Shown piece after piece: positions 3,156 through 54,570 of a DNA stretch of 64,000 nt. This DNA is from Naegleria gruberi (lineage: Eukaryota). The translations under genes were made by a program, and so were the position numbers. The notes beneath the pieces were generated by a model. It saw only the letters and a list, made by a program, of their open reading frames with translations, did no database searches and was not told the DNA's origin. Each line of letters begins with the position of its first letter. Positions within the stretch are counted from its first letter, which is position 1. The stretch lies in assembly GCA_000004985.1 (NCBI GenBank), contig GG738905.1; one strand, given 5' to 3'.

Positions 3156-3983
3156 CTACTTGTCAAATACCTTTAGACTTTCCAAACAAGAGTCAACTAT
3201 TAAACTCTCCTTTGAATTCAACTTGTTAACTAAATCATATAATTCCTCACTATCCTTGAATCCTTGCTCAAATTTTTTCAACGTGGTTGCTATAAGTTTT
3301 TGATTTACAGGCATATTAAGATCTACTAAACTCTTGGTCGTTTGATTATTTAACGAGTTTTGCTGTTGTGATTGCATATATCTCAAATATAATTCATCCG
3401 TAGATGACATTCCATATCGTTGATTAATCTTTTCCTCTGGTTCTTCATTATTCTTTCGTTTTGCCAGCAGAACATCCACATAATAATACATGAAAACAGT
3501 GTGGAGAAATATTTGTTGTTCCTCTTTAGTACGTAATTGAGCAACAAGTCTTTGAAATTCAATTGTATGTTTAGCAAAATATTCTAAATTATCCTCAAAG
3601 AACTGTAAAGTATTAAAAACAAATGGAGTGAAATTTGCGTTTGGTAAAGCCTTTTTTCTTAACTTTTCCAAATTCTTTTGTTTCTTTTCTAAAATTTCAA
3701 TTTTTGTTAATTCCTTTTCCTTTTCTAACTTTTTAGCTTCCTCCTCCTCTTTTTTACTTATCTTTTCTTGTTGTTTTAAAAGCATGGTTAGGAAATCCTT
3801 TGTATTTGATTTATTTGCACTCGTCTTTTTTCTCTTTTCTTCCTCGAATTGTTTCATAAATTCCTCCAGGAAGGGAGCATTTAGTTTACTCTTTTCCGAT
3901 GGTTGTTTACTTGATGTTTTCATCTGAGGAAGGGAGGAATTCGGTTTTTTGATAGCAGTTTGTGGTTGTGCTCGTTTCTTCAT
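3156..3983 (-). CDS. K/E-rich coiled-coil protein, unknown function (275 aa)
   Basis: Long minus-strand ORF with charged low-complexity sequence (EEEAKKLEKEKELTKIEILEKKQKNLEKLRKK). Overlapping plus-strand ORFs look like antisense artefacts. Confidence 0.4.
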   Translation of the reverse strand: MKKRAQPQTAIKKPNSSLPQMKTSSKQPSEKSKLNAPFLEEFMKQFEEEKRKKTSANKSNTKDFLTMLLKQQEKISKKEEEEAKKLEKEKELTKIEILEKKQKNLEKLRKKALPNANFTPFVFNTLQFFEDNLEYFAKHTIEFQRLVAQLRTKEEQQIFLHTVFMYYYVDVLLAKRKNNEEPEEKINQRYGMSSTDELYLRYMQSQQQNSLNNQTTKSLVDLNMPVNQKLIATTLKKFEQGFKDSEELYDLVNKLNSKESLIVDSCLESLKVFDK

Positions 3984-4041
3984 TTTTTTTCAATTAAATT
4001 ATTTATTAATAAATGGTATTTAATAAATATTATTTAATAAT

Positions 4042-5680
4042 TTATTCTTTTGTTTGTATTGTAATGTCAGAGAATGGTCCACAAATATTCTGAGAATCAA
4101 TAAATATTTTCATCATTCTATAAGCTTTTGAAATGGTAGGTCTAAGTTGAAAATGGAATTTGGTGAGATCGGATGATTCCCATCTTCTTGTACCATTTAC
4201 AGAACAGACACTTCCACCAAAGATATAGACACTATTTCTATTATAATCCAGACTCATTGAAAAATAGTTTCGTCCAACAAATGTTTCATCAAATTCTGAG
4301 ATATTAAGCTCGTGAGGTGATCTCTTTGCTTCATTTGATTCTTGCCCAAATATTTGTCCAACTCCTTGTAAACATGACTCATCTGATGCAGCGATTGAAT
4401 GTTTGGTATCAACCAAGTACACAACTTCAGGATCATGACTTGAAAGTGTATCACAAACTTGCCATGTTAATTCCTCAACATCAAATATTAAAACATCTCT
4501 TGTGAAATCCTGTGGCTGATCTCTAGTATGACATGTACCACCAAAAGATAATAACTTGGTTGGTGATATCTTTACCATGTTATGAGAACGAGTTTTTGGA
4601 GTTTTAACCCAAAAATTCTTTGTCATTACTCTGTATTCGTCTGGTATTTTCTTAAATGCTGGTATTGGAGAGCTACATGGAATGGCTGTCGATTCAACCT
4701 TAATCCATGTATTTGTTTTAAAGTAGAAAATGAGTGAATCATTACTAACCTTATTAGTTAGAAAATGAATAAATCATTACTAACCTCATTGGTGCATTCT
4801 CTCCAGATCTTAATTTTCCTCCAAACACTACCATTGCATCAATCTTATCAAAATATAAACTTTGATGATAGGCAACTGTTGATGTGACATGTTCGAATCC
4901 AAACATTTTTTCCTTTTTCATGTCTTGAAATTCAACAGTTCCTGCTACATGATCCAACAATACTCTATAGAATGAATTTGTGAAAACTAAATTTCCTCCA
5001 TGACCTCCATAAACATAATATTCTCCATTCCTACGTTTTACTATGGTATGTCCTTCAAGGCCTGGAAGCCATTGTGATGATATGTATCGTCTCCAAATAA
5101 ATGTTTTCATATCAATTCCATAAAATTCATTTGACAGAGTTCTTCCTTGTTTCAACCCTCCATATCTATTAGTAATAGTATTATTAAATATTATTAATTA
5201 AAAACATACAAAAAGACTTCCTTTAAATCATCATCATAATAACATGCTGGAAATATTCTACCTCCATAACAACCATTATATGTTTTCACCTCCTCTACAG
5301 CAATTTTCTCTAATTTAAATCATCATCATCAATTCATAGGAATGATGATAAATTTACATCAATCAACAAAACAAACCTGTTTCTTCATATAATCTATTAA
5401 TTTCATCCAAATGAATTCTCATTAAACAATAATCATTCACAACAGAATTAAAACTGTGCCAAATATTAGAACCCATGAAAATATACAAATAATCATCACA
5501 AATAAATTGATAATTGTGAGAATTTTCAAAATAACGTGATGTTGTAGGATCAATATTATGAGTTGGATATCGGATCGTTGTTGTTCTTTGTTTATCGATA
5601 GTATCACCATCAACATATAATTGTTTAACCTTATCAATAACAAAATCTAAATGAGGTTTTAGTGGTGTTTGTTGTGACAT
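4042..5680 (-). CDS. kelch-repeat (beta-propeller) protein, 4 exons, about 470 aa
   Basis: Exons on the minus strand are 5377..5680, 5210..5309, 4785..5165 and 4042..4672. Introns are 5310..5376 (67 nt, GTTTGT..TAG), 5166..5209 (44 nt, GTATGT..CTAATAG) and 4673..4784 (112 nt, GTTAGT..TGTAG). Phases are consistent across the junctions (ETG|EKIAVEEV, FL|YGGLKQGRTL, PMS|SPIPAFKK). Kelch-like blade motifs YVYGGHGG, IFGG, VVFGGK and IFMGSN. Confidence 0.6.
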
Positions 5681-5942
5681 TTTTTTCAGTTACTAATCAT
5701 ACAATTACAATGAATATTGCACATTTGATCATCAAATACATCCTATTACAATAATGTAAAACCATAGATGGTCAACCATAATTGAAACATTTGAATTGTT
5801 TACAATGAAATAGATTACTCCGACTTGGATTCTTCACAAAGATGACCATGAGCCTGTACTGTACCTTAATAGTTAACGTAGTTGATGCCGATTGGGAAAA
5901 CTGTAGTTAGCAGATAAACAACATCTTTAAAAAAAACACCAC

Positions 5943-6955
5943 ATGACCACACAACAAGAATCACTGAGGACTTGGTTAATTTGTTGTCTCTTTGTAGTAG
6001 CTTTTATTGCCTCCATACAACCATATTACTCTGTATTATCAACAACAACCACTAATACATCATCATCAAGTTGTTCAACAGAGGATGGTTATCTGATTTA
6101 CAACAGGAAGCAATAACATTGCAAAATACTGTATCCAAGTTGGAGAAGGCCGTTGGAGTGTTGAATACAACCAATACTAATAGTACCTCACAAATAATTG
6201 CAATGAGAGTTTCTCAGTTGAAAAAGGTAAAGACAGCCCTTAATAATCTTAACTTGGAAATTCAAGTTATTAGTGATAGATGTAATAATTATGATGGAGA
6301 TGATTGTAACATTACAAGAGCATTGAATATTACTGGTGAATTTATGTATTTTAGTTTTGACAATGGTGATTTAGCTGACAAGTATGGAATTCCAACTGAA
6401 TCCTATGGAATGTCATTCAGTGATGCTTCCCCTAGAAAGCCATATTATGGTAAATATGCTGTGTTCAACAAAGCTACTTCTTCAAACTTTAATACAAATA
6501 GTCCAACATGGGTAACTTTTGGTACTGGTAAATCTCTTTCACTGTGGCTTAGAAAGTTAACTAATACGGATTCAGGTGTTGTTTGGAGCTTTCTAATGAG
6601 CCAACCTCCTTTATTTCAACACATGGGAAGTAATGGTTTAGCTTCAAGTGATAATCTTGAATTTTATTGGAAAACATCATCAACATTACCAATAAGGTTT
6701 TATTCTTCATCCAAATTGTTAGACAATGAATGGCATCATCTTGCTGTTGTTTGCAAGGCAACTGGAGTTGATATTTATATTGATGGAGTTTTAGACAATT
6801 CCAGTTCATCAACTTTTGATCCAGTAACAAGTAATATTAAGTTTGGCGGCCTCCAAGGTATCAACTCTGCTTTTTTCAGTGGTCACATGGACGAAATTAG
6901 AATGTTCAATGTTGAATTAACAGCTGCCCAAATCCAACAAATTTATAATTATTAA
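5943..6955 (+). CDS. signal-anchored protein with a C-terminal laminin-G/concanavalin-A-like lectin domain, 2 exons
   Basis: Exon 1 (5943..6032) encodes MTTQQESLRTWLICCLFVVAFIASIQPYYS, a hydrophobic signal/anchor. A 38-nt intron at 6033..6070 (GTATTA..CAAG) has ACTAAT 15 nt upstream of the acceptor. Exon 2 (6071..6955) has a LamG/pentraxin-like jelly-roll C-terminus (WHHLAVVCKATGVDIYIDGVLD...GHMDEIRMFNVELTAAQIQQIY). Confidence 0.5.
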
Positions 6956-7039
6956 ATCCCACTCAACAGAGTTGGTAAATGAATAAATTCAATATTGTTT
7001 ATTTACATATTAGTACATTTCAATAACCTGAAGAATTTC

Positions 7040-22600: not shown

Positions 22601-23705
22601 ATGGCAAATAAAACTGTAGTTAAGAGATCCGTACCTGCACAATTACGGAGAGTCAAGTACTTGTTGTCTAATCACAAATCATTAATGGATCGCTTTAAAA
22701 CAGAGTTGACTAATCACAACTTCCTTCACATAAAAACAAAAAAAATGTCTAGAGCTTTCTCTCGTTTTGATTCTATCAAATTCACTGTTGTTAGAGGTGA
22801 AAAACTAATGGTTGGTGATTCGAATGGACTTAGTGACCCATACGTTTTAATTATTGATCAATCAACAAAGCAAACTCTTCACAAAACGGTTGTCGATAGA
22901 AAAACTTTAAATCCAAGATGGAATTCAACATTTTGGAAACGTTACACTGAAGAAACACCAAAGAATCTCAAGTTAAAGATTGAAGTTTATGATTGGGATG
23001 ATGACAAGGATGATGTAAGTTATTATGATATATCTTCTTGGTCAATTAAACAACATATAGGATTTCCTTGGTTGGTTTGAAATTGAACTTGATCCAAACG
23101 TATTGAATCCAGATCAAACATATGAATCTTCACATCAATTAGAAGATGCTACAACTGGTAAAGTTTGGATCAATTACAAATGGGATACATCAGAAAGAAA
23201 GCCAAGTGCCAAGACATCAAGTACAGGAATTGGGTCAGATGGTTTCAAGGTCATTACAGAATTGAATTCAAGTTGTTTCATTCCTAAAGTTCCAAGCTCT
23301 TTTGTTCTTATTGGAACAGATGTTGATTCATTGAATCAAGATTACACAGTCACTTGTGTTGATTCCACAAATGGTAATACTCTCCTCTTTACCTTTACAA
23401 AACTCAAATCCAAAACATTTGAGAAGGCAAAGGAAGATCACTTATTCATCATGTTAAAGAGTTTGAAAGATAAATATCCAAACTTGAAGGCATTGAAGAG
23501 TGATGTTGCTGGATCCACATTTGGAGGAAAGGTCAACTCTTCAACCAAGAGTGTTTATGATGCTGGTAATAAGACAGTTATAACATCAATTTGTGCCAAT
23601 TTCAAGAACAAGGCATTCATCAATTTGGCTTTAATTTCAAAAGGAGAAGATTTGGCTGCCATGTTAGACGATGTAATGATCAAGACAACTTTGTTAGCTC
23701 TTTAA
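22601..23705 (+). CDS. C2-domain protein, 2 exons, about 353 aa
   Basis: Exons are 22601..23014 and 23061..23705, with a 46-nt intron (GTAAGT..ATATAG) at 23015..23060. C2 signature: GLSDPYVLIIDQ...LNPRWNSTF...KLKIEVYDWDDDKDD|DFLGWFEIEL. Confidence 0.6.
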
Positions 23706-30653: not shown

Positions 30654-32621
30654 ATGGTCACCAAACATTACACTTCCATTAACCATGACAGTGCACCAGA
30701 TGATTTCACAACACAGCAACAAGCAGTATCATTCCACCACAACACAACTGTGAAATATCATACAGTAGTAACTCAGACAGAGAATCATAACAACCAAACA
30801 ATCAGCACAGCTAAAAAGACACCCACTCCGAAAGGTCCTCACACCTACAATTCATTTGTTGCCTATTGTTATTGTGTGAATTATATATTGGGAGTTGGAG
30901 TTTTGGGAATTCCTTATGCTTTTCAGAAAGGTGGTCTACTAATGGGTCCTATCTTTCTCTTAATAGTTACATTATTGGCTGGTATGGTTCTGGTTTGGAT
31001 TTTAGAAACATTGTGTAGATCTGTGCCATTCTTTAAGGAAAAAGAAGAACAAAAGAAGGATTACAAAATGTTGTCTGCTTCCTCTTCAGTTTCATTACCC
31101 ACAGTTGAATCGTCAGCTTCTGTAGATTCTAATATTAATGCTGTTGAAGAAGAGGAAACATCTACTACTCCTCCTGATGATAAAAAAGAAACTAAACAAG
31201 TTGACACTACTTCAATTGCAACAGAAGAAGGAACAAGGATTGAATTTCCATTCCCAGAAAAGAAGTATGAAATGAATGAATTGTGTGCACTCCTTCTTGG
31301 TTGGCCAGGTAAAATAATCTATGAAGGAGCTCTTGCATTATGTCTGTATGGTAATTTATGGGCCTTGTCAACTATATTTGCAGAGTCAATGTCATCAAAT
31401 GTTCCACTTCCAGTTGGACCTAATAATTACAATTGGTTTACTTGTAATGTTTACACAGATGGTTCATCAAATTGTGATGCATTGTACAAAATTTATATTG
31501 GAGTTTTTGCTTTATTTGTTATTCCAATGACTTGTTTGAATTTAACAGAACAAAAGATTGTTCGTAAGTAGAATTTCATGCTTTTTAGTTAACATTTTAC
31601 AATTTCAGAAATATTCTTGACAATATTTAGATATGTTGCTTTAACATTGATGGTTGTGACAACTTTGGTTTCCATATTTGTTGATCCTTATTCAAGATAT
31701 GAACATAATCCACATATTGCAATGGAAAGACATGGACCATATACTTCACCAACTAGCTTAGTTTCTGTGTTGGGATTTTCTACTCTATTACCTGTTTGCA
31801 TTTATGCTCAAATTTTACATCATTCAGTTCCTGGTTTGGTAAGTTGCAACAATTTTTGAAATATTTTACAATTGTTGTAAATGTAGTGTGAACCAGTGAG
31901 GAATAAGAAACATTTACCTAAAATTTTCACATCAACCTTCATTACCACATTCTTTATTTATTCATTATTGGGAATTGTGCTTAGTATTTATTATGGAGAT
32001 AACATTCAACCTGCTTGTTCATTGAATTATGTTTGGTACAGAGGTGGAAAACCATTTGGAATGAGACAACCATGGTGGAGTCATGTTATTATATGGACAA
32101 TAGCGTTATTCCCTGCTGTAGATGTTATTTCTGCATTTCCATTGGTAAGTTATTGTGATAATTTTACACATTCGAAACTATTCCCAATTTAGAATGGAAT
32201 TACTTTGGGAAATAATTTGTTTGCTGCCTTCTTCTCTGGAACCAAGTGGATCAACAATAGAAAGATCCAAATCTTGTTTAGATTAATTGTTGCCATTCCA
32301 CCATTGATCGGTGCCTTATTTGTAAAGAATCTTGACGCTAGTAAGTAGTTTGATTGATTAAAATTTAAAGTTTAATGAAATACAGTTTTGAAATATGTTG
32401 GATTATTGGGATTTTTAATAACATTTGTAATTCCTCCACTATTATACATTGTTGCAAAGAGAAAGATTTTTACTAAATATGGACAACAAGCATCTCCAAA
32501 AACTCCATACACAATTCCAATCATTAGCTCCATTCCAATGGCAATTATTTGTATTGTATTTGGTTTAATAGCTATAGTTTATTGCATTACAGAAAATATC
32601 ATTTCTGCAGTTTCTTCCTAA
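30654..32621 (+). CDS. amino acid transporter (AAAP / SLC38-AVT-like), 5 exons, about 594 aa
   Basis: Exons are 30654..31563, 31609..31838, 31887..32144, 32193..32340 and 32386..32621. The four introns are 45-48 nt (GTAAGT..TTTCAG, GTAAGT..ATGTAG, GTAAGT..ATTTAG, GTAAGT..ATACAG). Aa_trans signature NYILGVGVLGIPYAFQKGG and about 11 TM helices. Phases are consistent across all junctions. Confidence 0.7.
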
Positions 32622-36704: not shown

Positions 36705-38306
36705 CTAGTTATCTGGATTTCTGGAATCGATAACATCGAATATTGAAAGTGCTTCATCTGCCTTTGGATGTCCTTGTTTTTTGGCAATAAGGAAGAATGA
36801 ATAGGCCAACTCTCCATTTTGATTATCCAAAAAGAATTTTCCTAATACGAAACTAGCTCTAGAATTTCCCAATTTAGATGATCTTTGTAAACATGAAAAA
36901 GCATATTCCATATCAGCTTGCTCCCATTCCTGTTCAAACATATGAAGACAACCAGCTCTAAACAAAATACCAGAATTATTTGGATCGATTGACAAATATT
37001 TAGAATAGGTTTGATCTGCCAAATCCAAGTTAGGTTCCAGTAATACTTGTCCACTCTCTGAAACCTTTCCATCCTCATAGAATCCAGCCAATAAACCAAG
37101 TGCCTTAAGATTTCCATTATCTGCTGCCTTTTTTAAATATTCTAAACCTTTCAAATCATCAACTGGTGTGGCAATTCCTAAAAAGTGGAATTCAGCAACT
37201 CTCATTAAAGCATCTGGATAATTTAAATCAGCTGCCTTATTATACCATTCCAATGCCTTTTCATCACTTTTTTCAAATGATTTTCCATATTCATAAAACT
37301 CTCCCAATCTAATCGACAAATATTATTGAAATATTTCACATTATGTTACAACATTTCAATCATTAAAACTATAATTAACATACCTATACATGCATCCTGG
37401 ATTGTTCTTTTCAGCTCCAAGCTCAAACCAAACTCTAGCTGTTGTATTACTTGAAGAGAGGAATTTGGTCTTTAATGGATTTGAAATAAAGTCAAATTCA
37501 AGATAATACTCCTTATAGAATAGCATACCAGCAAAGTAATAAGCTTCTGGATAACCTGATCTGGCACTTTCTAATATAAGTGAATGAATTTGCTTTGCTT
37601 CATATGGAAGAATGAAGGTATTTCTAAGTAATTGAGCTAGTGCCAATGATTTTTCTGGAGTTTTCTCTTTAGAGTAGACTAGTGCTTTTTTCAATAATAA
37701 ATGAGTGTAAACTTGATCGATTTGAATGCTTGCATCCCCTTGTTTCGAATAGAAAACTTTCAAGTTGTGACGATCAGGTGTTGTTTCCTCCTCACTGTCA
37801 TCATTTTCAAAGTTTTCATCCACAAATAAATATTCCAAAGAAGGTAATTTCATTTCCTTCATGCAATTTTCCAATGCTTTCTTCGTAATCTTATTTCTAC
37901 TAATATCCAATAACTTTAATTGATTCCATTTTGAATGATTCATCAATAAATCCAAACATTCATCATTCAATTCACACTCAACTAATCTCAATTCCTCCAA
38001 TTCTTCCCATTCACTATTAGAAACTAACTTTCTAACACTTGATTCGTCTAAATTTCCTCCCAAAATTTGTAAAATCTTCAATCCTTTAAAATTTGAATTT
38101 TCACATATTGCATCCACTTCTTCCGAACCCACTTTCGTATTTAATAGGAATATTCTCTTCAGAGGAGTTTCAATTTTTTGTAATTCTTCCGAGGCAGTGC
38201 TACTTTCACCCAATTCGAATAAAGTTTCTTGCTCCCAATCAATGGCTTCCGAATTGTCCAACTCCTTGTTTGTGTGTGGTAAATTCATAACGTGTTCTGT
38301 TTGCAT
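36705..38306 (-). CDS. LRR plus SEL1-repeat protein, 2 exons
   Basis: Exons are 37384..38306 (leucine-rich repeat region LKILQILGGNL...LRLVECELNDECLDLLMNH...LLDISRNKI) and 36705..37308 (SEL1/TPR-like repeats ALEWYNKAADLNYPDALMRVAEFHFLG...AADNGNLKALGLLAGFYEDG). They are joined by a 75-nt intron (GTATGT..CGATTAG) at 37309..37383; the junction reads CMYR|LGEFYEYG. Confidence 0.6.
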
Positions 38307-38474
38307 TTTTTTTTTCTAGTGTGTGAAATTCAGGTTTCTAATAGATTGTTTAATAGGAATGGGAAATGGATTCTTCAAATTCAATTTCAGAAATTAACAG
38401 CATTGAACTATTTGGAACTATTTCAAATTATGTAACAGTGTGAATATAAATGTTACATTCAAAACAACTGTTGA

Positions 38475-39425
38475 TTGTTTAGAACAAACTTCTACAATAA
38501 GAGTAGTGGAACATGTGAAGTGATAGAAGGGCCTGTTCTCATTACAAAAACACCAGGTCTATTCAGATCCGATATGAGACTATTCCAGGCAGTGAAGAAA
38601 GATTGCTTGACCCATTTAAAAGATGTAGTTGTGTTTTCCTCTTTAGGACCAGAATTTGTACCTTCTCTGATATCTGGAGCTGATTTAGATGGTGACCATT
38701 TTTACATTTTCTGGGATTCTGAGCTTGTGGAGAATATACAATGTGTTGATGAAAAGGAACCATCATCCATATTATCGAATACACCAGTCAATAATAACTC
38801 ATTGAATACTTACAATTGGAGCTGTCTCTATACAAACATTCCAACTTTTTCAGAAGATGTTATCGACAATGTTGGTTTAGAGGATGAATTTGATAATTAT
38901 GAAATAGCCATTAAGAAGTCGTATCAAAAATTGCTATTAGCTCTTGACACTTTCAAATATTGCTCCTTCTCTCACTTACTTGAATTGAGAAGAATTTTTG
39001 TTGATTACTTTGCAATTAATTGGGCAAACAATAATGAATATTACAATATCATGTATCAAATCGCAAATGCCATTACCTGCACCATAGACGCTCCAAAACA
39101 TGGACAGTGGAAAGAATGGAAAGACTTTCTGCCAATCATATCAAATATTCCAAAAAGCCCACATTATTTACTTACAGGGAATTGTACTATTTCACATTCG
39201 ATATTTGGTAAAAATGTAAAGATTGAATGCAATTATGATGGAAATGGTGGCGAAGCTTTTTACCTACTATTCGAAAATTGCCTTAAGAAATATGATTTAG
39301 AAACGTATGACCCTATTTGGACATCTCCAACTCTTGAAAATCCAATTGCAATAGATATTCATGATGACACCAAGGACTACAGAAATAATTTAATCAGTAT
39401 TGGATCAAGCATCAAATCAAATTGA
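38475..39425 (+). CDS. RNA-dependent RNA polymerase (eukaryotic RDR/QDE-1 type) C-terminal fragment containing the DLDGD catalytic motif; possibly truncated or pseudogenic
   Basis: GPVLITKTPGLFRSDMRLFQAVKK...VVFSSLGPEFVPSLISGADLDGDHFYIFWD matches the RDR catalytic core. The ORF is only 316 aa and begins at TTG. An in-frame stop lies just upstream and the first ATG is 34 codons in. Only about 170 bp separate it from the start of the neighbouring minus-strand gene, so there is no room for the roughly 600-aa N-terminal part of a full RDR. Confidence 0.45.
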   Translation: MFRTNFYNKSSGTCEVIEGPVLITKTPGLFRSDMRLFQAVKKDCLTHLKDVVVFSSLGPEFVPSLISGADLDGDHFYIFWDSELVENIQCVDEKEPSSILSNTPVNNNSLNTYNWSCLYTNIPTFSEDVIDNVGLEDEFDNYEIAIKKSYQKLLLALDTFKYCSFSHLLELRRIFVDYFAINWANNNEYYNIMYQIANAITCTIDAPKHGQWKEWKDFLPIISNIPKSPHYLLTGNCTISHSIFGKNVKIECNYDGNGGEAFYLLFENCLKKYDLETYDPIWTSPTLENPIAIDIHDDTKDYRNNLISIGSSIKSN

Positions 39426-39477: not shown

Positions 39478-39720
39478 TTATTTATTAACACCTGGGAAGG
39501 AATCAACGTATTTAATCTTAAAATCAGGGAAGGAATCAACAATTTTAATCTTGTAATCAGGGAAGGAATCAACAATTTTCCATTTACCTGCAGAATCAGG
39601 GAAGGAATCAACAAGTTTAACTTTGAGATCAGGGAAGGAATCGACAATTTTAACTTTATAATCTGGGAAACTGTCAACGAATTTAATCTTTCCGTAAATC
39701 TTGGAAACGTCTGGAGCCAT
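39478..39720 (-). CDS. small ORF (80 aa) made of seven tandem copies of an 11-aa unit (K-x-K-x-VDSFPD-x)
   Basis: MAPDVSKIYG KIKFVDSFPDY KVKIVDSFPDL KVKLVDSFPDS ... KIKYVDSFPGVNK. It is encoded by a 33-bp tandem DNA repeat (atcagggaaggaatcaacaattttaatcttgta), and the coding frame is maintained across all copies. Confidence 0.4.
   Translation of the reverse strand: MAPDVSKIYGKIKFVDSFPDYKVKIVDSFPDLKVKLVDSFPDSAGKWKIVDSFPDYKIKIVDSFPDFKIKYVDSFPGVNK
39490..39700. repeat. 33-bp tandem repeat array (about 6.5 copies), in-frame with ORF 39478..39720
   Basis: Directly visible periodicity on the plus strand of the motif gggaaggaatcaacaa (written here) recurring every 33 bp, with minor substitutions. 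Confidence 0.8.
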
Positions 39721-39952: not shown

Positions 39953-41506
39953 TTACAATTCATCCTTACGAGTTGTTGGTGTAAGGATTTTGAGGTAAAT
40001 TTCAAGGATTTTCTTTTCTGATTGAATGTATCTGACAGCACATTTCTGAGACATGGTCACAGGAAGTCTTTTTCCTAGTATTGATTCATTTTCTTGTATC
40101 ATTTCAATAATATTATCCAATCTTTGTTTGATGAGTCCTCTAATTGTTTCAATGACAATCTTTTCATTTCTATCCGAAATTGGGTTGATTAGGATTTTAG
40201 CAATCATGTCTCTCTTCTGATCCAATGGTGCTAATGAATTGGCAATATCAGAGAGGGCCTTAATTTCCACTGAATCACAGCTCAATATTCTCATAATGGC
40301 AATAATATTCGGATCAAATATTTCACTGAGAGTATGTTCTACTAAATTAAAGCTATCATCATTATAGTAGAGAGTTTGTGTGAGATGATATTCATCAAGG
40401 GAGGTCATTGAGAGTAAACGCACTCTTTGATTGTTGAGCTTCTTATCGACAGTGGACATTCTCCTCATTACAGATTCTCTCATATCAATAACAGTGATAG
40501 TATTATTCAAAAACTCAATTTCTGGATCATCCAATGGACAAAAACCATAATCCATCATGAGAATATGATTCAGTGTTGGAGTTAATTTTCCATACTTTAC
40601 AAAAAGTTGATTTCCAGCTTTGACTCTCTTTGATGTTTTGAAAATGAGCTCATTGGTCTTCTTGTCAGTGTAAGAAATTACATTTGCACCAGTCTTTGAA
40701 AAGTTAATAATATCACCCAATGGAACAAAACATGAACGATCTGTCTTGATTCTGTAATCATAAATCGAGTGAATTCTAGACCAACTGAGAGAAACAAAAT
40801 GTTCAAATAATCCAAGAGTAATTGAAGAAGTGTTTCTAATTGGTTCTAATACTGTCAAATCATTCAATAATGGATTGACAATTTTTTGAAATGAATTGGC
40901 AATACTTTGTCTTCTTGTAAGAGCTGATGGAAGTAATGTAGACCCCTTCAATAATGTTAATTCTTCTCCACCAAAAAGGAATGCTACTTTTGGACCTTCA
41001 TCACGAAATGGTCTTGGTAGAGATCCAATATATGGAGTGAATTTGACAGCATCAGCATCAAACTTCATTTCAGGATTGCTTGATTGAGCCAAATTAAATA
41101 AATAAACAATCATCAAAACCATTGCATTAAAAATTGACAAATCCCCTTCCTGTAATCTCTTTAAAGTATCCAATGACTTGGCATTCTCATGTTTAAATAA
41201 TTTTTCAAATATAAATTTCGAATCCAGCAAGGTCTCTTGTTTTAATTTAAACAAAATTGTATTCTGTTTAATATCTTTAGTGGCAACAAGTGCCTTTCCA
41301 AAATCAACCACTTGTTTAATTTCAAATAAATTATCATTCACCTCCGAATGTTCCTCTTCTCTCATCCACTTTGTCAATAAATTAAATCTTTCATCATTCG
41401 ATGCCACAACAACACTCCAATGATAACAAAATACCATCATTGTCATCAATAAGAACATCATCACAAAATTCCTTGATGATGAATGATGAGCTTTCATGTT
41501 GGGCAT
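39953..41506 (-). CDS. SET-domain lysine methyltransferase (SETD6/RBCMT-like, with Rubisco-LSMT-type substrate-binding region), 517 aa
   Basis: N-SET FGKALVATKDIKQNTILFKL. Post-SET region CFVPLGDIINFSKTGANVISY...AGNQLFVKYGK (compare ALVPxxDxxNH...GEExxxxYG). Hydrophobic N-terminus. Intronless. Confidence 0.5.
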   Translation of the reverse strand: MPNMKAHHSSSRNFVMMFLLMTMMVFCYHWSVVVASNDERFNLLTKWMREEEHSEVNDNLFEIKQVVDFGKALVATKDIKQNTILFKLKQETLLDSKFIFEKLFKHENAKSLDTLKRLQEGDLSIFNAMVLMIVYLFNLAQSSNPEMKFDADAVKFTPYIGSLPRPFRDEGPKVAFLFGGEELTLLKGSTLLPSALTRRQSIANSFQKIVNPLLNDLTVLEPIRNTSSITLGLFEHFVSLSWSRIHSIYDYRIKTDRSCFVPLGDIINFSKTGANVISYTDKKTNELIFKTSKRVKAGNQLFVKYGKLTPTLNHILMMDYGFCPLDDPEIEFLNNTITVIDMRESVMRRMSTVDKKLNNQRVRLLSMTSLDEYHLTQTLYYNDDSFNLVEHTLSEIFDPNIIAIMRILSCDSVEIKALSDIANSLAPLDQKRDMIAKILINPISDRNEKIVIETIRGLIKQRLDNIIEMIQENESILGKRLPVTMSQKCAVRYIQSEKKILEIYLKILTPTTRKDEL

Positions 41507-53065: not shown

Positions 53066-54570
53066 ATGAAAGATAATGATAACGATTATCATACTATCAA
53101 ATATGTTCACAGTGAGAGGTATTTGAATGCCTGTTCAAAACTACCAGCATATAATAGACATTCGGAACAACCTTATGGTAGTGCTGCTAATTTAATACAG
53201 GAGGAAATTGATGAATTACCTTCAAGATCGGAACTTGTTCATTCTCTGATAGGTTAGTGTGATGATTGAAATATAATTTGTTGAATATGTGAGAAGAGGC
53301 TTTTGGAATTTTGGAAAAAGTGGAAAGCATTGAACCAGAAAAGGCTCTGATGAAGGATTTACAAATTTATCACTCAAAAGAATACGTTCATGCATTGTAT
53401 AAAATCGATAAAAGTTTGAAAGCAAGATCGTCATTGGGTGATAAAGAGGAAGATATGAGTGATGAAGAAGTATCGAGTGATGAATCTTCAAATAGTGATA
53501 ATGATGATGCAACTGATATTGAGGAATTAAAAAAACAATTTGGATTGGTGGATGATGCTCATGATTTTAAGGGAATGGTATGGATAAATGAAATTGGATT
53601 TTATTGAAATATTACAAATAGTTTAATTATGCTCTTTATATTGGTGGGTCCTGCAATGCCATAGCAAAAGAGGTAAATCACTTTTTGAAGAGTAGCTCTA
53701 GTGAGGAACGATTGACCATTTTGAATTTTGAAGGTGGAAGACATCATGCAAGAAAATCAAGGGCAGCTGGATTTTGTTATGTTAATGACGTAGTAATGCT
53801 ATCATTACTGATTAAAAGAAGGAAGATTCTATGTATTGATATAGATATACATCATGGTGATGGAACTGAAGAGGCTTTCTTTAGCAGTGAGAGAGTATTT
53901 ACAGTATCATTCCATCAATTTGGACCTGGACTCTATCCAGGAACTGGTACCACTGATAATAATGGAACAGGTCGAGGAAAATATCACAATCTCAATGTGC
54001 CACTAAAAGAGGGATTGTCAGATAAGAATTTTGAGAGAATTTTCACTTCAGTAATTGCAAAATCATTCGAAAAGTTTGAACCAGAAGTTGTTATTCTAGT
54101 GATGGGAGCTGATAATCTGAATGGAGATCCTCTTGGTACATGGAATTTGAGTTTGGAAAGTTTCGAATATGTAACCAATTTTGTAAAGAATGAGTTAAAG
54201 TCAAAGGTAACGATTATTGTTGGTGGAGGTAAGTTTCGAATATTTTCTCAATTTGATTTACCAAAACAATTTAGGTGGTTACAATTACATACATACTGGT
54301 AAGTGTTTTCTTTGTGAATATCTTTATTGAAATCTTAAAGCTATTGCCTATGCTACAGTTTCGAACATGATGGTAAATAATTGTAAATTACCAGAACTTA
54401 TCCCAGAACATTCATTCTTTGAATTGTACAAGAGTGTTGGATTTTCATCAAATGTTAACCATGGAGTAAAGAGGGATGAAAACACTGAACAATATCTCAA
54501 AGAAATCGAACAACAGTCAATCAAGCAAATTGATAACATCCCTCCAAAATCAAATGCCGCCCAAATTTAA
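53066..54570 (+). CDS. class I histone deacetylase of the HDAC8 type, 5 exons, 437 aa
   Basis: Exons are 53066..53252, 53294..53577, 53622..54228, 54275..54298 (a 24-nt exon encoding GYNYIHT) and 54359..54570. The introns are 41, 44, 46 and 60 nt. HDAC8-like junction and active-site strings: VHSLIE|EAFGIL, FNYALYIGGSCNAIA, GGRHHARKSRAAGFCYVND, IDIDIHHGDG, FHQFGPGLYPGTG, VGGGGYN, ELIPEHSFF. Confidence 0.85.

What the first reader, a model, noticed from the sequence alone, without database searches (positions are those of the whole stretch)
38475..39425. Truncated RNA-dependent RNA polymerase ORF carrying the DLDGD catalytic box
The 316-aa ORF matches the catalytic core and C-terminal third of eukaryotic RDR/QDE-1-type RdRPs (SGADLDGDHFYIFWD). 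It has no room for the roughly 600-aa N-terminal region, and an in-frame stop lies immediately upstream of its TTG start. It could be a pseudogene remnant, a relic of a larger gene disrupted by the neighbouring LRR-SEL1 gene, or a short RdRP isoform. Its 3' end converges within 53 bp on the minus-strand tandem-repeat ORF (39478..39720), so read-through from either side would make dsRNA.
Basis: partly seen in the sequence, partly recalled or inferred. Interest (0 to 1): 0.65.

Follow-up and report, generated by a model that had tools for sequence, protein, structure and literature searches.

The report
Truncated RdRP gene fragment in Naegleria
This is a real but incomplete copy of a cellular RNA-dependent RNA polymerase gene in the amoeba Naegleria gruberi. 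It keeps the catalytic DLDGD loop but lacks most of the enzyme, and the genome has at least ten complete copies elsewhere, so it is most likely an ordinary gene remnant.

Summary
ORF 38475..39425 (+) matches Pfam RdRP PF05183 (E 6.7e-24) and carries SGADLDGDHFYIFWD. It is Naegleria gruberi gene NAEGRDRAFT_73464 (XP_002671405.1), annotated as a 283-aa product starting at ATG 38574.

A profile built from 76 full-length RdRPs matches only ORF residues 9-246, which correspond to profile positions 565-756 of 975. Nothing else in the 64 kb matches. By QDE-1 numbering the ORF holds about four-fifths of the second barrel (DPBB2) and the flap. It lacks the slab, DPBB1, most of the neck and the head. 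It is therefore cut at both ends, not only at the N-terminus, and cannot be a stand-alone two-barrel polymerase.

N. gruberi has ten complete RDR genes in a published catalogue, and three were recovered here on other scaffolds.

The retained segment shows no decay: it has an open frame, gene-like codon usage, and 25 of 25 clade-invariant residues. Either the truncation is recent or the piece is kept for a non-catalytic role. The data cannot separate these.

The 52-nt convergent spacing is normal for this window. The finding is ordinary and of low interest.

The parts
38475..39425 (+). Stop-to-stop open frame of 316 codons plus stop: the RdRP fragment. Residues 9-246 are homologous to cellular RdRPs.
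   Evidence: ORF list. Pfam PF05183, E 6.7e-24. Own profile of 76 full-length RdRPs: E 5e-51, profile positions 565-756 of 975. Foldseek top hits are QDE-1 and RDR2.
38574..39425 (+). Publicly annotated CDS NAEGRDRAFT_73464 (XP_002671405.1, EFC38661.1, UniProt D2VWQ3), 283 aa. It starts at the first in-frame ATG, which falls inside DPBB2 at about QDE-1 residue 971.
   Evidence: 100% identity to P0001; accessions. The 33 codons upstream of this ATG add 35 bits of RdRP homology (171.2 against 135.7 bits).
38682..38696 (+). Codons for D70-L-D-G-D74, the metal-binding catalytic loop (QDE-1 D1007/D1009/D1011, RdRP motif 6).
   Evidence: Sequence. Alignments to QDE-1 and RDR2. These columns are invariant in alignments A1 and A3. 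QDE-1 numbering from PMC1750930.
38307..38474 (.). 168-nt spacer between the two divergent genes. It looks non-coding in all frames, ends with the in-frame TGA at 38472-38474, and holds four of the five short-uORF ATGs that precede ATG 38574 (the fifth is at 38513).
   Evidence: Codon log-odds of -0.46 to -0.85 in the three frames. Translations. List of upstream ATGs.
38366..38482 (+). Speculative 5' mini-exon (ATG 38366..38439, MDSSNSISEINSIELFGTISNYVT) followed by a 43-nt GT..AG intron (38440..38482) that would join the ORF frame and give a 338-aa product. Weakly supported.
   Evidence: The frames join. The RdRP profile gains only 1.9 bits. The donor GTGAAT differs from the GTAAGT/GTATGT donors of the short introns inferred in this window. 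A 43-nt length is itself typical of those introns.
39210..39422 (+). C-terminal tail, residues 246-316, with no significant homology and a low-confidence model. It replaces the ~260 residues (neck and head) that follow this point in the closest full-length relative.
   Evidence: The match to P0002 ends at ORF residue 245, which aligns to P0002 residue 847 of 1107. pLDDT is below 50 for 248-254, 257-263 and 273-316. Codon usage is still gene-like, 0.321.
36705..38306 (-). Divergent neighbour NAEGRDRAFT_73463 (XP_002671480.1), 508 aa. It has a weak LRR-like region and Sel1 repeats, in two exons (38306..37384 and 37308..36705) separated by a 75-nt GTATGT..TAG intron (37383..37309). It is not part of the RdRP gene.
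   Evidence: Pfam Sel1 E 3.8e-19; LRR_8 only 15 bits, below the cut-off. Intron read from the sequence. The spliced product is an exact match to the public protein.
39478..39720 (-). Convergent 80-codon ORF made of six 11-residue units VDSFPD[YLF]K[VI]K (33-nt DNA period). Its stop lies 52 nt from the fragment's stop.
   Evidence: ORF list. Tandem Repeats Finder: period 33, 5.8 copies. Repeat family D1. Gene-like codon usage, 0.425. No family match.

Best explanation
The locus is a doubly truncated paralogue of a cellular (QDE-1/RDR-type) RNA-dependent RNA polymerase in the Naegleria gruberi nuclear genome. By QDE-1 numbering it keeps roughly residues 938-1180: about four-fifths of the catalytic barrel DPBB2 with the DLDGD metal loop, plus the flap. 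It lacks the slab, DPBB1, most of the neck and the head.

A two-barrel polymerase forms its active cleft between DPBB1 and DPBB2, and DPBB1 supplies invariant basic residues. This product therefore cannot polymerise RNA on its own. RNA-silencing polymerase activity in this organism is supplied by the complete RDR genes elsewhere in the genome.

The most likely history is a fairly recent loss, or partial capture, of a gene from an RDR clade that has no other annotated member in N. gruberi. That leaves a transcribable remnant next to a divergent promoter region.

Shown: identity, extent, missing parts, intactness of the retained part, and existence of complete paralogues. Inferred: lack of catalytic activity, recency of the truncation, and lack of function.
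For: Identity:
- Pfam RdRP, E 6.7e-24.
- PDB sequence hits to QDE-1 and RDR2.
- The 21 best Foldseek hits are all QDE-1 or RDR2, with TM-score 0.40-0.51 normalised on the query but only 0.13-0.20 on the target, so the model covers a small part of the enzyme.

Extent:
- The profile of 76 full-length RdRPs (975 positions) matches ORF residues 9-246 at positions 565-756. Every other six-frame piece of the 64 kb scores E > 1.
- tblastn with 60 full-length RdRPs finds no other piece.
- ORF residue n corresponds to QDE-1 residue n+937. QDE-1 domains are slab 390-646, DPBB1 690-792, DPBB2 916-1018, flap 1025-1161 and head 1196-1372 (PMC1750930).

Flanks:
- The neighbour's ATG is 168 nt upstream and a convergent stop is 52 nt downstream.
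- The upstream spacer is non-coding-like.
- There is no in-frame ATG before codon 34, although codons 1-33 carry 35 bits of homology.
- Five upstream ATGs precede the annotated start.

Redundancy:
- Ten N. gruberi RDRs are listed in PMC4791657.
- XP_002679167 (1235 aa), XP_002676936 (1745 aa) and XP_002670772 (1384 aa) each carry a complete PF05183 domain.

Precedent: truncated or degenerate RdRP paralogues are described in fungi, for example C. parasitica rdr4 (PMC4182546).
Against: - The retained segment shows no sign of decay. The frame is open for 316 codons. Under neutrality it would stay open with P >= 0.05 only up to about 4.6-5.7% nucleotide divergence.
- Codon usage is gene-like along the whole ORF, including the non-homologous tail (0.244 overall, against 0.348 +/- 0.116 for genes).
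- All 25 positions invariant in seven full-length relatives are kept. Identity to those relatives (33-46%) equals that among the full-length proteins themselves.
- No close parental copy exists in the annotated N. gruberi proteome. The nearest relative is a metagenomic protein at ~40% identity. A recent partial duplication of an extant gene is therefore excluded, and 'recent truncation' has no independent support.
- Expression and translation were not tested.
Confidence: 0.6

Rival explanations
1. A short RdRP-derived protein maintained by selection. It would consist of a single catalytic barrel (DPBB2) plus the flap and have a non-catalytic role, for example binding or titrating a partner of the full-length RDRs, or acting as a dominant-negative or regulatory subunit. 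It would be translated from ATG 38574, or from a 5' mini-exon (ATG 38366) spliced over a 43-nt intron.
For: - Open frame of 316 codons. The neutral expectation is a stop after ~1% divergence (median) and fewer than 5% of lineages still open at ~5% divergence.
- Gene-like codon usage throughout, including the tail.
- 25 of 25 clade-invariant residues, and every invariant or near-invariant position of the 34-sequence family alignment, are kept.
- No accelerated divergence relative to full-length relatives.
- No close parental copy that would mark a young duplicate.
- The mini-exon and 43-nt intron join the frames, and introns of 41-50 nt appear common in this window.
- The AlphaFold model is confident for residues 1-95 and 140-235.
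Against: - No relative of the same short architecture could be shown to be a complete gene. No close homologue exists in any other organism in the databases searched, so conservation of the short form is untested.
- Conservation of the catalytic triad and of codons 1-33, which lie upstream of the only in-frame ATG, is what recent truncation predicts. It is not what a non-catalytic protein starting at codon 34 predicts.
- The proposed donor GTGAAT is unlike the GTAAGT/GTATGT donors seen in the window, and the mini-exon adds only 1.9 bits of homology.
- Five upstream ATGs precede ATG 38574.
- The public gene model has no such exon.
Confidence: 0.27
2. The gene is really complete, or is one half of a split enzyme. 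[quoted passage not shown]
For: - The retained part is intact and retains all catalytic residues.
- The N-terminal boundary falls close to the start of DPBB2, at QDE-1 residue 938 against 916.
- PMC1750930 notes that in multi-subunit RNA polymerases the two barrels lie on separate subunits.
Against: - No N runs or repeats lie at either junction. Both flanks are ordinary annotated genes, and the left neighbour's spliced product is an exact match to the public protein.
- No N-terminal RdRP piece is found within 38 kb upstream or 25 kb downstream.
- All ten catalogued N. gruberi RDRs contain both halves, and none is an N-terminal-only fragment.
- The fragment also lacks the head. A simple two-way split does not explain that.
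- The direct test, a search of the N. gruberi proteome for an N-terminal fragment of the P0002-like clade, could not be done reliably. One search did not even return its own query sequences.
Confidence: 0.06
3. The locus matters as a source of double-stranded RNA. Read-through between the fragment and the convergent repeat ORF 52 nt away would yield natural antisense transcripts that feed the RNAi pathway.
For: The two stops are 52 nt apart and no intrinsic-terminator-like structure lies between them. If both genes are transcribed, their 3' UTRs must overlap or be very short.
Against: Convergent ORF pairs with gaps of 5, 10, 39 and 70 nt occur elsewhere in the same window, so this geometry is the norm in this compact genome and singles out nothing. 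The terminator scan is a bacterial model and is irrelevant to a eukaryote. No RNA family matches. No small-RNA data are available.
Confidence: 0.07

Closest known systems
Cellular two-barrel RNA-dependent RNA polymerases (Pfam PF05183): Neurospora QDE-1, Arabidopsis/maize RDR2
   Same: Homologous catalytic barrel DPBB2 with the DxDGD loop, the preceding motif ('TKTPGLFRSD' aligns to 'aRsPahfpsD'), and the flap helices ending in the 'AVDfPKtG'-like motif (here TIDAPKHG). Sequence and fold matches are significant.
   Different: Only about 240 of roughly 1000 core residues are present. The slab, DPBB1, most of the neck and the head are missing. The annotated start removes a further half of DPBB2.
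A protist RDR clade represented by metagenomic P0002 (1107 aa, ENA ERZ27315067), Pedospumella encystans P0003, LNAP01 P0004, Helgoeca nana P0010, and more distantly Vermamoeba P0006 and Echinamoeba P0024
   Same: This is the fragment's nearest family: 39% identity over 240 aa to P0002, and 46% over ungapped columns. Shared signatures are SGADLDGDHF, CS..HLL.LRR.F.D and APKHG.W.
   Different: All of these proteins have the full PF05183 domain from about profile position 11-59 onward, and P0002 has 260 residues after the point where the fragment's homology stops. There is no synteny between the P0002 contig and this window.
The complete N. gruberi RDR paralogues (NaegRDR1a-c, 2a, 2b, 3-7 of PMC4791657; XP_002670772, XP_002676936, XP_002679167)
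   Same: Same organism and same family, with the DLDGD box. The RDR2/RDR6 group shares the 'W....W......AxDAPKxG' region.
   Different: They are only distantly related to the fragment (75-80 bits, against 164 for P0002). They are full length, 1235-1745 aa. Three of them carry C-terminal Sel1 repeats and one also a TLDc domain.
Truncated or degenerate RdRP paralogues in fungi (Cryphonectria parasitica rdr4; the degenerate Aspergillus nidulans QDE-1 orthologue), PMC4182546
   Same: A member of an RdRP gene family with an incomplete RdRP domain, coexisting with intact paralogues and interpreted as non-functional.
   Different: C. parasitica rdr4 loses the DPBB/DXDGD part through premature stops in its transcripts. 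Here the DLDGD part is what survives, and the rest is physically absent from the locus.

Membership tests
Cellular RdRP (PF05183; QDE-1/RDR two-barrel polymerases) | Significant match to the family profile | tested here: met
   PF05183 E 6.7e-24, 84.9 bits against a cut-off of 23.8. Own 76-sequence profile E 5e-51.
Cellular RdRP (PF05183; QDE-1/RDR two-barrel polymerases) | Catalytic DxDGD loop in DPBB2 (QDE-1 D1007/D1009/D1011) | tested here: met
   D70-L-D-G-D74 aligns to the catalytic loops of QDE-1 and RDR2. The column is invariant in the 34-sequence alignment.
Cellular RdRP (PF05183; QDE-1/RDR two-barrel polymerases) | Complete DPBB2 (QDE-1 residues 916-1018, motifs 4-6) | tested here: inconclusive
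   ORF residue 1 corresponds to QDE-1 residue 938, so ~81 of 103 residues are present from the TTG and ~48 from the annotated ATG. Motifs 5 and 6 are present. The motif-4 region is absent or unrecognisable upstream.
Cellular RdRP (PF05183; QDE-1/RDR two-barrel polymerases) | Second barrel DPBB1 with the invariant Q/K/K residues that complete the active cleft | tested here: not met
   Profile positions 1-564 have no counterpart in any frame of the 64-kb window, and tblastn finds nothing. Pfam covers only positions 375-465 of 582.
Cellular RdRP (PF05183; QDE-1/RDR two-barrel polymerases) | Slab, neck and head domains (head-mediated dimer in QDE-1) | tested here: not met
   Profile positions 757-975 are unmatched. 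Homology to P0002 stops at residue 847 of 1107. The tail is modelled with low confidence. The target-normalised TM-score is only 0.13-0.20.
Cellular RdRP (PF05183; QDE-1/RDR two-barrel polymerases) | RNA-templated RNA synthesis | not testable with these tools
   Needs recombinant protein and an activity assay. Inferred to be absent because DPBB1 is missing.
Processed or unitary pseudogene | Disabling lesions (stops or frameshifts) within the homologous region, or relaxed constraint | tested here: not met
   No stop or frameshift in 948 nt. 25 of 25 invariant residues are kept. Divergence is not accelerated. The only lesions are the truncations themselves and the lack of an in-frame ATG before codon 34.
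Processed or unitary pseudogene | Absence of transcription or translation | not testable with these tools
   No expression data can be reached here. N. gruberi RNA-seq exists as ENA PRJEB23822 (PMC6142364).

The most novel reading that the evidence does not exclude
The fragment is a naturally occurring, selectively maintained 'single-barrel' derivative of a two-barrel RNA polymerase (DPBB2 with an intact metal-binding loop, plus the flap). It would work in trans. One possibility is that it is one half of a split RdRP whose DPBB1-bearing half is encoded elsewhere. The other is that it is a regulatory or decoy subunit for the large N. gruberi RDR family. The evidence does not exclude this: the retained part is fully intact and unaccelerated, and the N. 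gruberi genome could not be searched for a matching N-terminal half.
Probability: 0.05. Interest if true: 0.7.

Novelty: new member of a known kind. Interest (0 to 1): 0.15.

Why it matters
As it stands, this matters little. It adds an eleventh, incomplete locus to the already large RdRP family of N. gruberi. It also flags a public protein (XP_002671405.1, named 'RNA-dependent RNA polymerase' in UniRef) that should not be counted as a functional polymerase in RNAi gene censuses.

It would matter more if the short form proved to be expressed and conserved. A free-standing catalytic barrel of a two-barrel polymerase would bear on how such enzymes evolved from single-barrel ancestors and on how their subunits came to be split. 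That reading has no positive support here.

Tried and rejected
1. Upstream exons restoring a full-length gene. Six-frame profile search and tblastn with 60 full-length RdRPs over the whole window found nothing.

2. Relic coding sequence in the 168-nt spacer. Two tblastn alignments run through the two in-frame stops. The similarity is only an extension from the strong downstream anchor, and adding the spacer gives 0-2 bits. I treat it as unproven.

3. Mini-exon plus 43-nt or 70-nt intron. The frames can be joined, but homology gains 1-2 bits and the donor is atypical.

4. The fragment and the neighbouring Sel1 gene as two pieces of a rearranged RdRP-Sel1 fusion like NaegRDR2a. Only repeat-level similarity was found (27% over the Sel1 region), the LRR part has no match, and the fragment belongs to a different RDR clade.

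5. Viral or mobile-element origin. There are no relatives in IMG/VR with either the protein or the alignment, and no flanking repeats.

6. Close relatives in metagenomes, to test conservation of the short form. The single-protein scan found none, and the alignment scan found only distant RdRPs.

7. Search for an N-terminal half in N. gruberi with an alignment of N-terminal regions. The word-index search returned six unrelated-source proteins and not even its own query sequences, so it is uninformative.

8. The first structure prediction, with 8 sequences, was too poor to use (pLDDT 50).

9. Synteny between the contig of the closest full-length relative and this window: none.

10. Rfam and NCBIfam scans of the region: nothing.

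11. The literature has no mention of the locus tag or accessions.

Full report
**What the window is.** The ORF product is 100% identical over 283 residues to a Naegleria gruberi protein. That protein is EFC38661.1 / XP_002671405.1 / UniProt D2VWQ3, locus NAEGRDRAFT_73464, on a 290,827-bp scaffold. The window is 32% G+C and densely packed with ordinary eukaryotic genes: MatE, GST, CRAL/TRIO, catalase, NHL, SET and others. The left neighbour, once spliced over a 75-nt GTATGT..TAG intron that I read from the sequence, is an exact match to XP_002671480.1. This is therefore N. gruberi nuclear DNA, and the finding concerns a gene that is already in the public annotation.

**Observation.** The open frame 38475..39425 has 316 codons, and the SGADLDGDHFYIFWD motif is there. 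An in-frame TGA sits directly upstream at 38472-38474. The neighbour's ATG is at 38306, 168 nt away. The stop of a minus-strand tandem-repeat ORF is 52 nt downstream. The RdRP assignment is robust. Pfam PF05183 matches at E 6.7e-24. QDE-1 and RDR2 chains match by sequence. A profile I built from 76 full-length relatives matches at E 5e-51. An AlphaFold model made with a 34-sequence alignment (pLDDT 70.9; residues 1-95 and 140-235 confident) has QDE-1 and RDR2 structures as its 21 best Foldseek hits, followed only by the beta-prime barrels of multi-subunit RNA polymerases at non-significant E-values. A frame this long has a chance probability of about 1e-11 at this composition.

**What is present and what is missing.** The alignment to QDE-1 puts ORF residue n at QDE-1 residue n+937, so D70/D72/D74 correspond to D1007/D1009/D1011. 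Salgado et al. (PMC1750930) define the slab as 390-646, DPBB1 as 690-792, DPBB2 as 916-1018, the flap as 1025-1161, neck helices up to 1195, and the head as 837-888 plus 1196-1372. On that map the ORF begins about 22 residues into DPBB2. It then runs through the catalytic loop and the flap, including the family's 'AVDfPKtG'-like motif, here TIDAPKHG. It ends near the start of the last neck helix.

My 975-position profile matches only positions 565-756 (ORF residues 9-246). Positions 1-564 and 757-975 have no counterpart in any of the six frames of the whole 64 kb; every other piece scores E > 1. tblastn with 60 full-length proteins agrees. The closest full-length relative continues for 260 residues beyond the last aligned position.

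The public model starts at the first in-frame ATG (38574, codon 34). That removes about half of DPBB2. The 33 codons before it carry 35 bits of family signal, so they are coding sequence by descent. Yet no ATG can initiate them. A 5' mini-exon (ATG 38366) and a 43-nt intron would join the frames. Introns of 41-50 nt seem common here, but the donor GTGAAT is unlike the GTAAGT/GTATGT donors I could infer, and the exon adds under 2 bits. I rate that model at about one in six. In any case it would add 22 residues, not the missing 600.

**Relatives.** An exhaustive phmmer search of 1.84 billion representatives gave 1477 hits. The nearest is a 1107-aa protein from an ENA metagenome assembly: 39% identity over 240 residues, and 46% over ungapped columns. 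Next come proteins from the chrysophyte Pedospumella, an unnamed LNAP01 contig, the choanoflagellate Helgoeca and the amoebae Vermamoeba and Echinamoeba. All of these have the full RdRP domain.

N. gruberi's own RdRPs are more distant, at 75-80 bits against 164. Three of them were recovered: XP_002679167 (1235 aa), XP_002676936 (1745 aa; it matches the NaegRDR6 alignment row at 98%) and XP_002670772 (1384 aa; NaegRDR2a). Bollmann et al. (PMC4791657) list ten N. gruberi RDRs: 1a-c, 2a, 2b and 3-7. All ten span both halves of the domain, and the present fragment is not among them. The fragment is the only annotated N. gruberi member of its particular clade, so it is not a young partial copy of an extant gene.

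**State of the retained segment.** I looked for decay and found none.
- The frame is open. 5.4-6.7% of possible single substitutions would create a stop. A neutrally evolving copy would lose the frame at a median of ~1% divergence and would still be open with P = 0.05 only at ~5%.
- Codon usage, scored against 23 long ORFs of the window, is 0.244 (genes 0.348 +/- 0.116; off-frames -0.5 to -1.0). It is positive in every sub-segment, including the non-homologous tail. The 168-nt spacer upstream is negative in all frames.
- All 25 positions invariant in seven full-length relatives are kept, a record as good as that of any full-length member in leave-one-out counts. Pairwise identities are as high as those among the full-length proteins.
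- All invariant and near-invariant positions of the 34-sequence alignment are also kept.

Either the truncation is recent, or the piece is still under selection.

**Mechanism.** A two-barrel polymerase builds its cleft between DPBB1 and DPBB2. DPBB1 contributes invariant Q736, K743 and K767, and the head mediates the dimer (PMC1750930). A product with one incomplete barrel and a flap cannot be an autonomous polymerase. This is an inference from established structure, not a test. I commit to the reading that this is a non-catalytic remnant of an RDR paralogue, redundant with ten complete genes, and probably transcribed at some level from the divergent promoter region (confidence 0.6).

The main rival is a maintained short protein with a non-catalytic role (0.27). 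The intactness data support it. Three things weaken it: there is no conserved short orthologue, the conserved codons 1-33 have no start codon, and five upstream ATGs precede the annotated start. A mis-assembly or a split enzyme (0.06) is not excluded, but nothing supports it. The junctions are clean, both flanking genes are normal, and no N-terminal piece lies within 25-38 kb. I could not search the rest of the N. gruberi genome; my attempt through the word-indexed protein search was uninformative.

**The dsRNA suggestion.** The 52-nt convergent gap is not distinctive. Other convergent ORF pairs in this window are 5, 10, 39 and 70 nt apart. No RNA family matches the region. Nothing singles this pair out.

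**Other leads that failed.**
- There are no relatives in IMG/VR.
- There are no close relatives in JGI metagenomes.
- No repeats or mobile-element signs flank the fragment.
- There is no synteny with the contig of the closest relative.
- Three N. gruberi RdRPs carry C-terminal Sel1 repeats and the fragment's neighbour is a Sel1 protein. That resemblance rests on repeat-level similarity only: 27% identity, no match outside the repeats, and a different RDR clade.

**Comparison with known cases and verdict.** Incomplete RdRP paralogues alongside intact ones are documented. C. parasitica rdr4 is interpreted as a non-functional RdRP pseudogene, and the A. nidulans QDE-1 orthologue is degenerate (PMC4182546). 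The present case differs in that the catalytic-loop segment is what survives, and it survives in pristine condition.

It meets the profile and catalytic-loop criteria of PF05183. It fails the DPBB1, slab and head criteria. It should therefore be called an RdRP-derived fragment, not an RdRP. It is a new, minor member of a known kind. Interest is low (0.15). The only route to something notable is expression and conservation of the short form, which public RNA-seq (PRJEB23822) and comparative Naegleria genomes could settle quickly.

Noticed in passing
window 36705..38306 (-), compared with P0017, P0013 and P0015: Three complete N. gruberi RdRPs (XP_002670772, XP_002679167, XP_002676936) carry C-terminal Sel1 repeats, and one also has a TLDc domain. 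This RdRP-Sel1 architecture was not seen in the other relatives scanned. The RdRP fragment's divergent neighbour is itself a Sel1-repeat protein. Similarity is at repeat level only (27%).
   Followed up: partly
window 39478..39720 (-): An 80-codon ORF made of six 11-residue units VDSFPD[YLF]K[VI]K (33-nt DNA period), with gene-like codon usage. It has no Pfam or NCBIfam family, and its exact product is absent from the 15-billion-protein collection. It may be an unannotated small repeat protein.
   Followed up: partly
window 23015-23060, 31564-31608, 32145-32192, 32341-32385, 53578-53621 (+); 33403-33361, 21906-21857, 18596-18556 (-): Candidate very short introns (41-50 nt), mostly with GTAAGT donors, join coding-like frames. 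The one intron verified against a public protein is 75 nt (37383..37309, GTATGT..TAG).
   Followed up: partly
L040 (ENA ERZ27315067 k141_365260) 3657-6980; L039 (same sample, k141_19464) 238-1638: The closest full-length relative of the fragment and a partial RdRP that resembles N. gruberi RDR2/RDR6 at 54-60% come from the same metagenome assembly, on AT-rich contigs (37-38% G+C). That sample may contain a heterolobosean relative useful for comparison.
   Followed up: partly
window 3145/3156, 11715/11721, 13594/13634, 16232/16303: Convergent long ORFs lie only 5-70 nt apart, so overlapping 3' ends are probably widespread in this genome.
   Followed up: no
window 39953..41506 (-): A 517-aa SET-domain ORF with a Rubisco-LSMT substrate-binding domain. 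Its exact ORF translation is not in the protein collection, so the public model probably differs in start or splicing.
   Followed up: no
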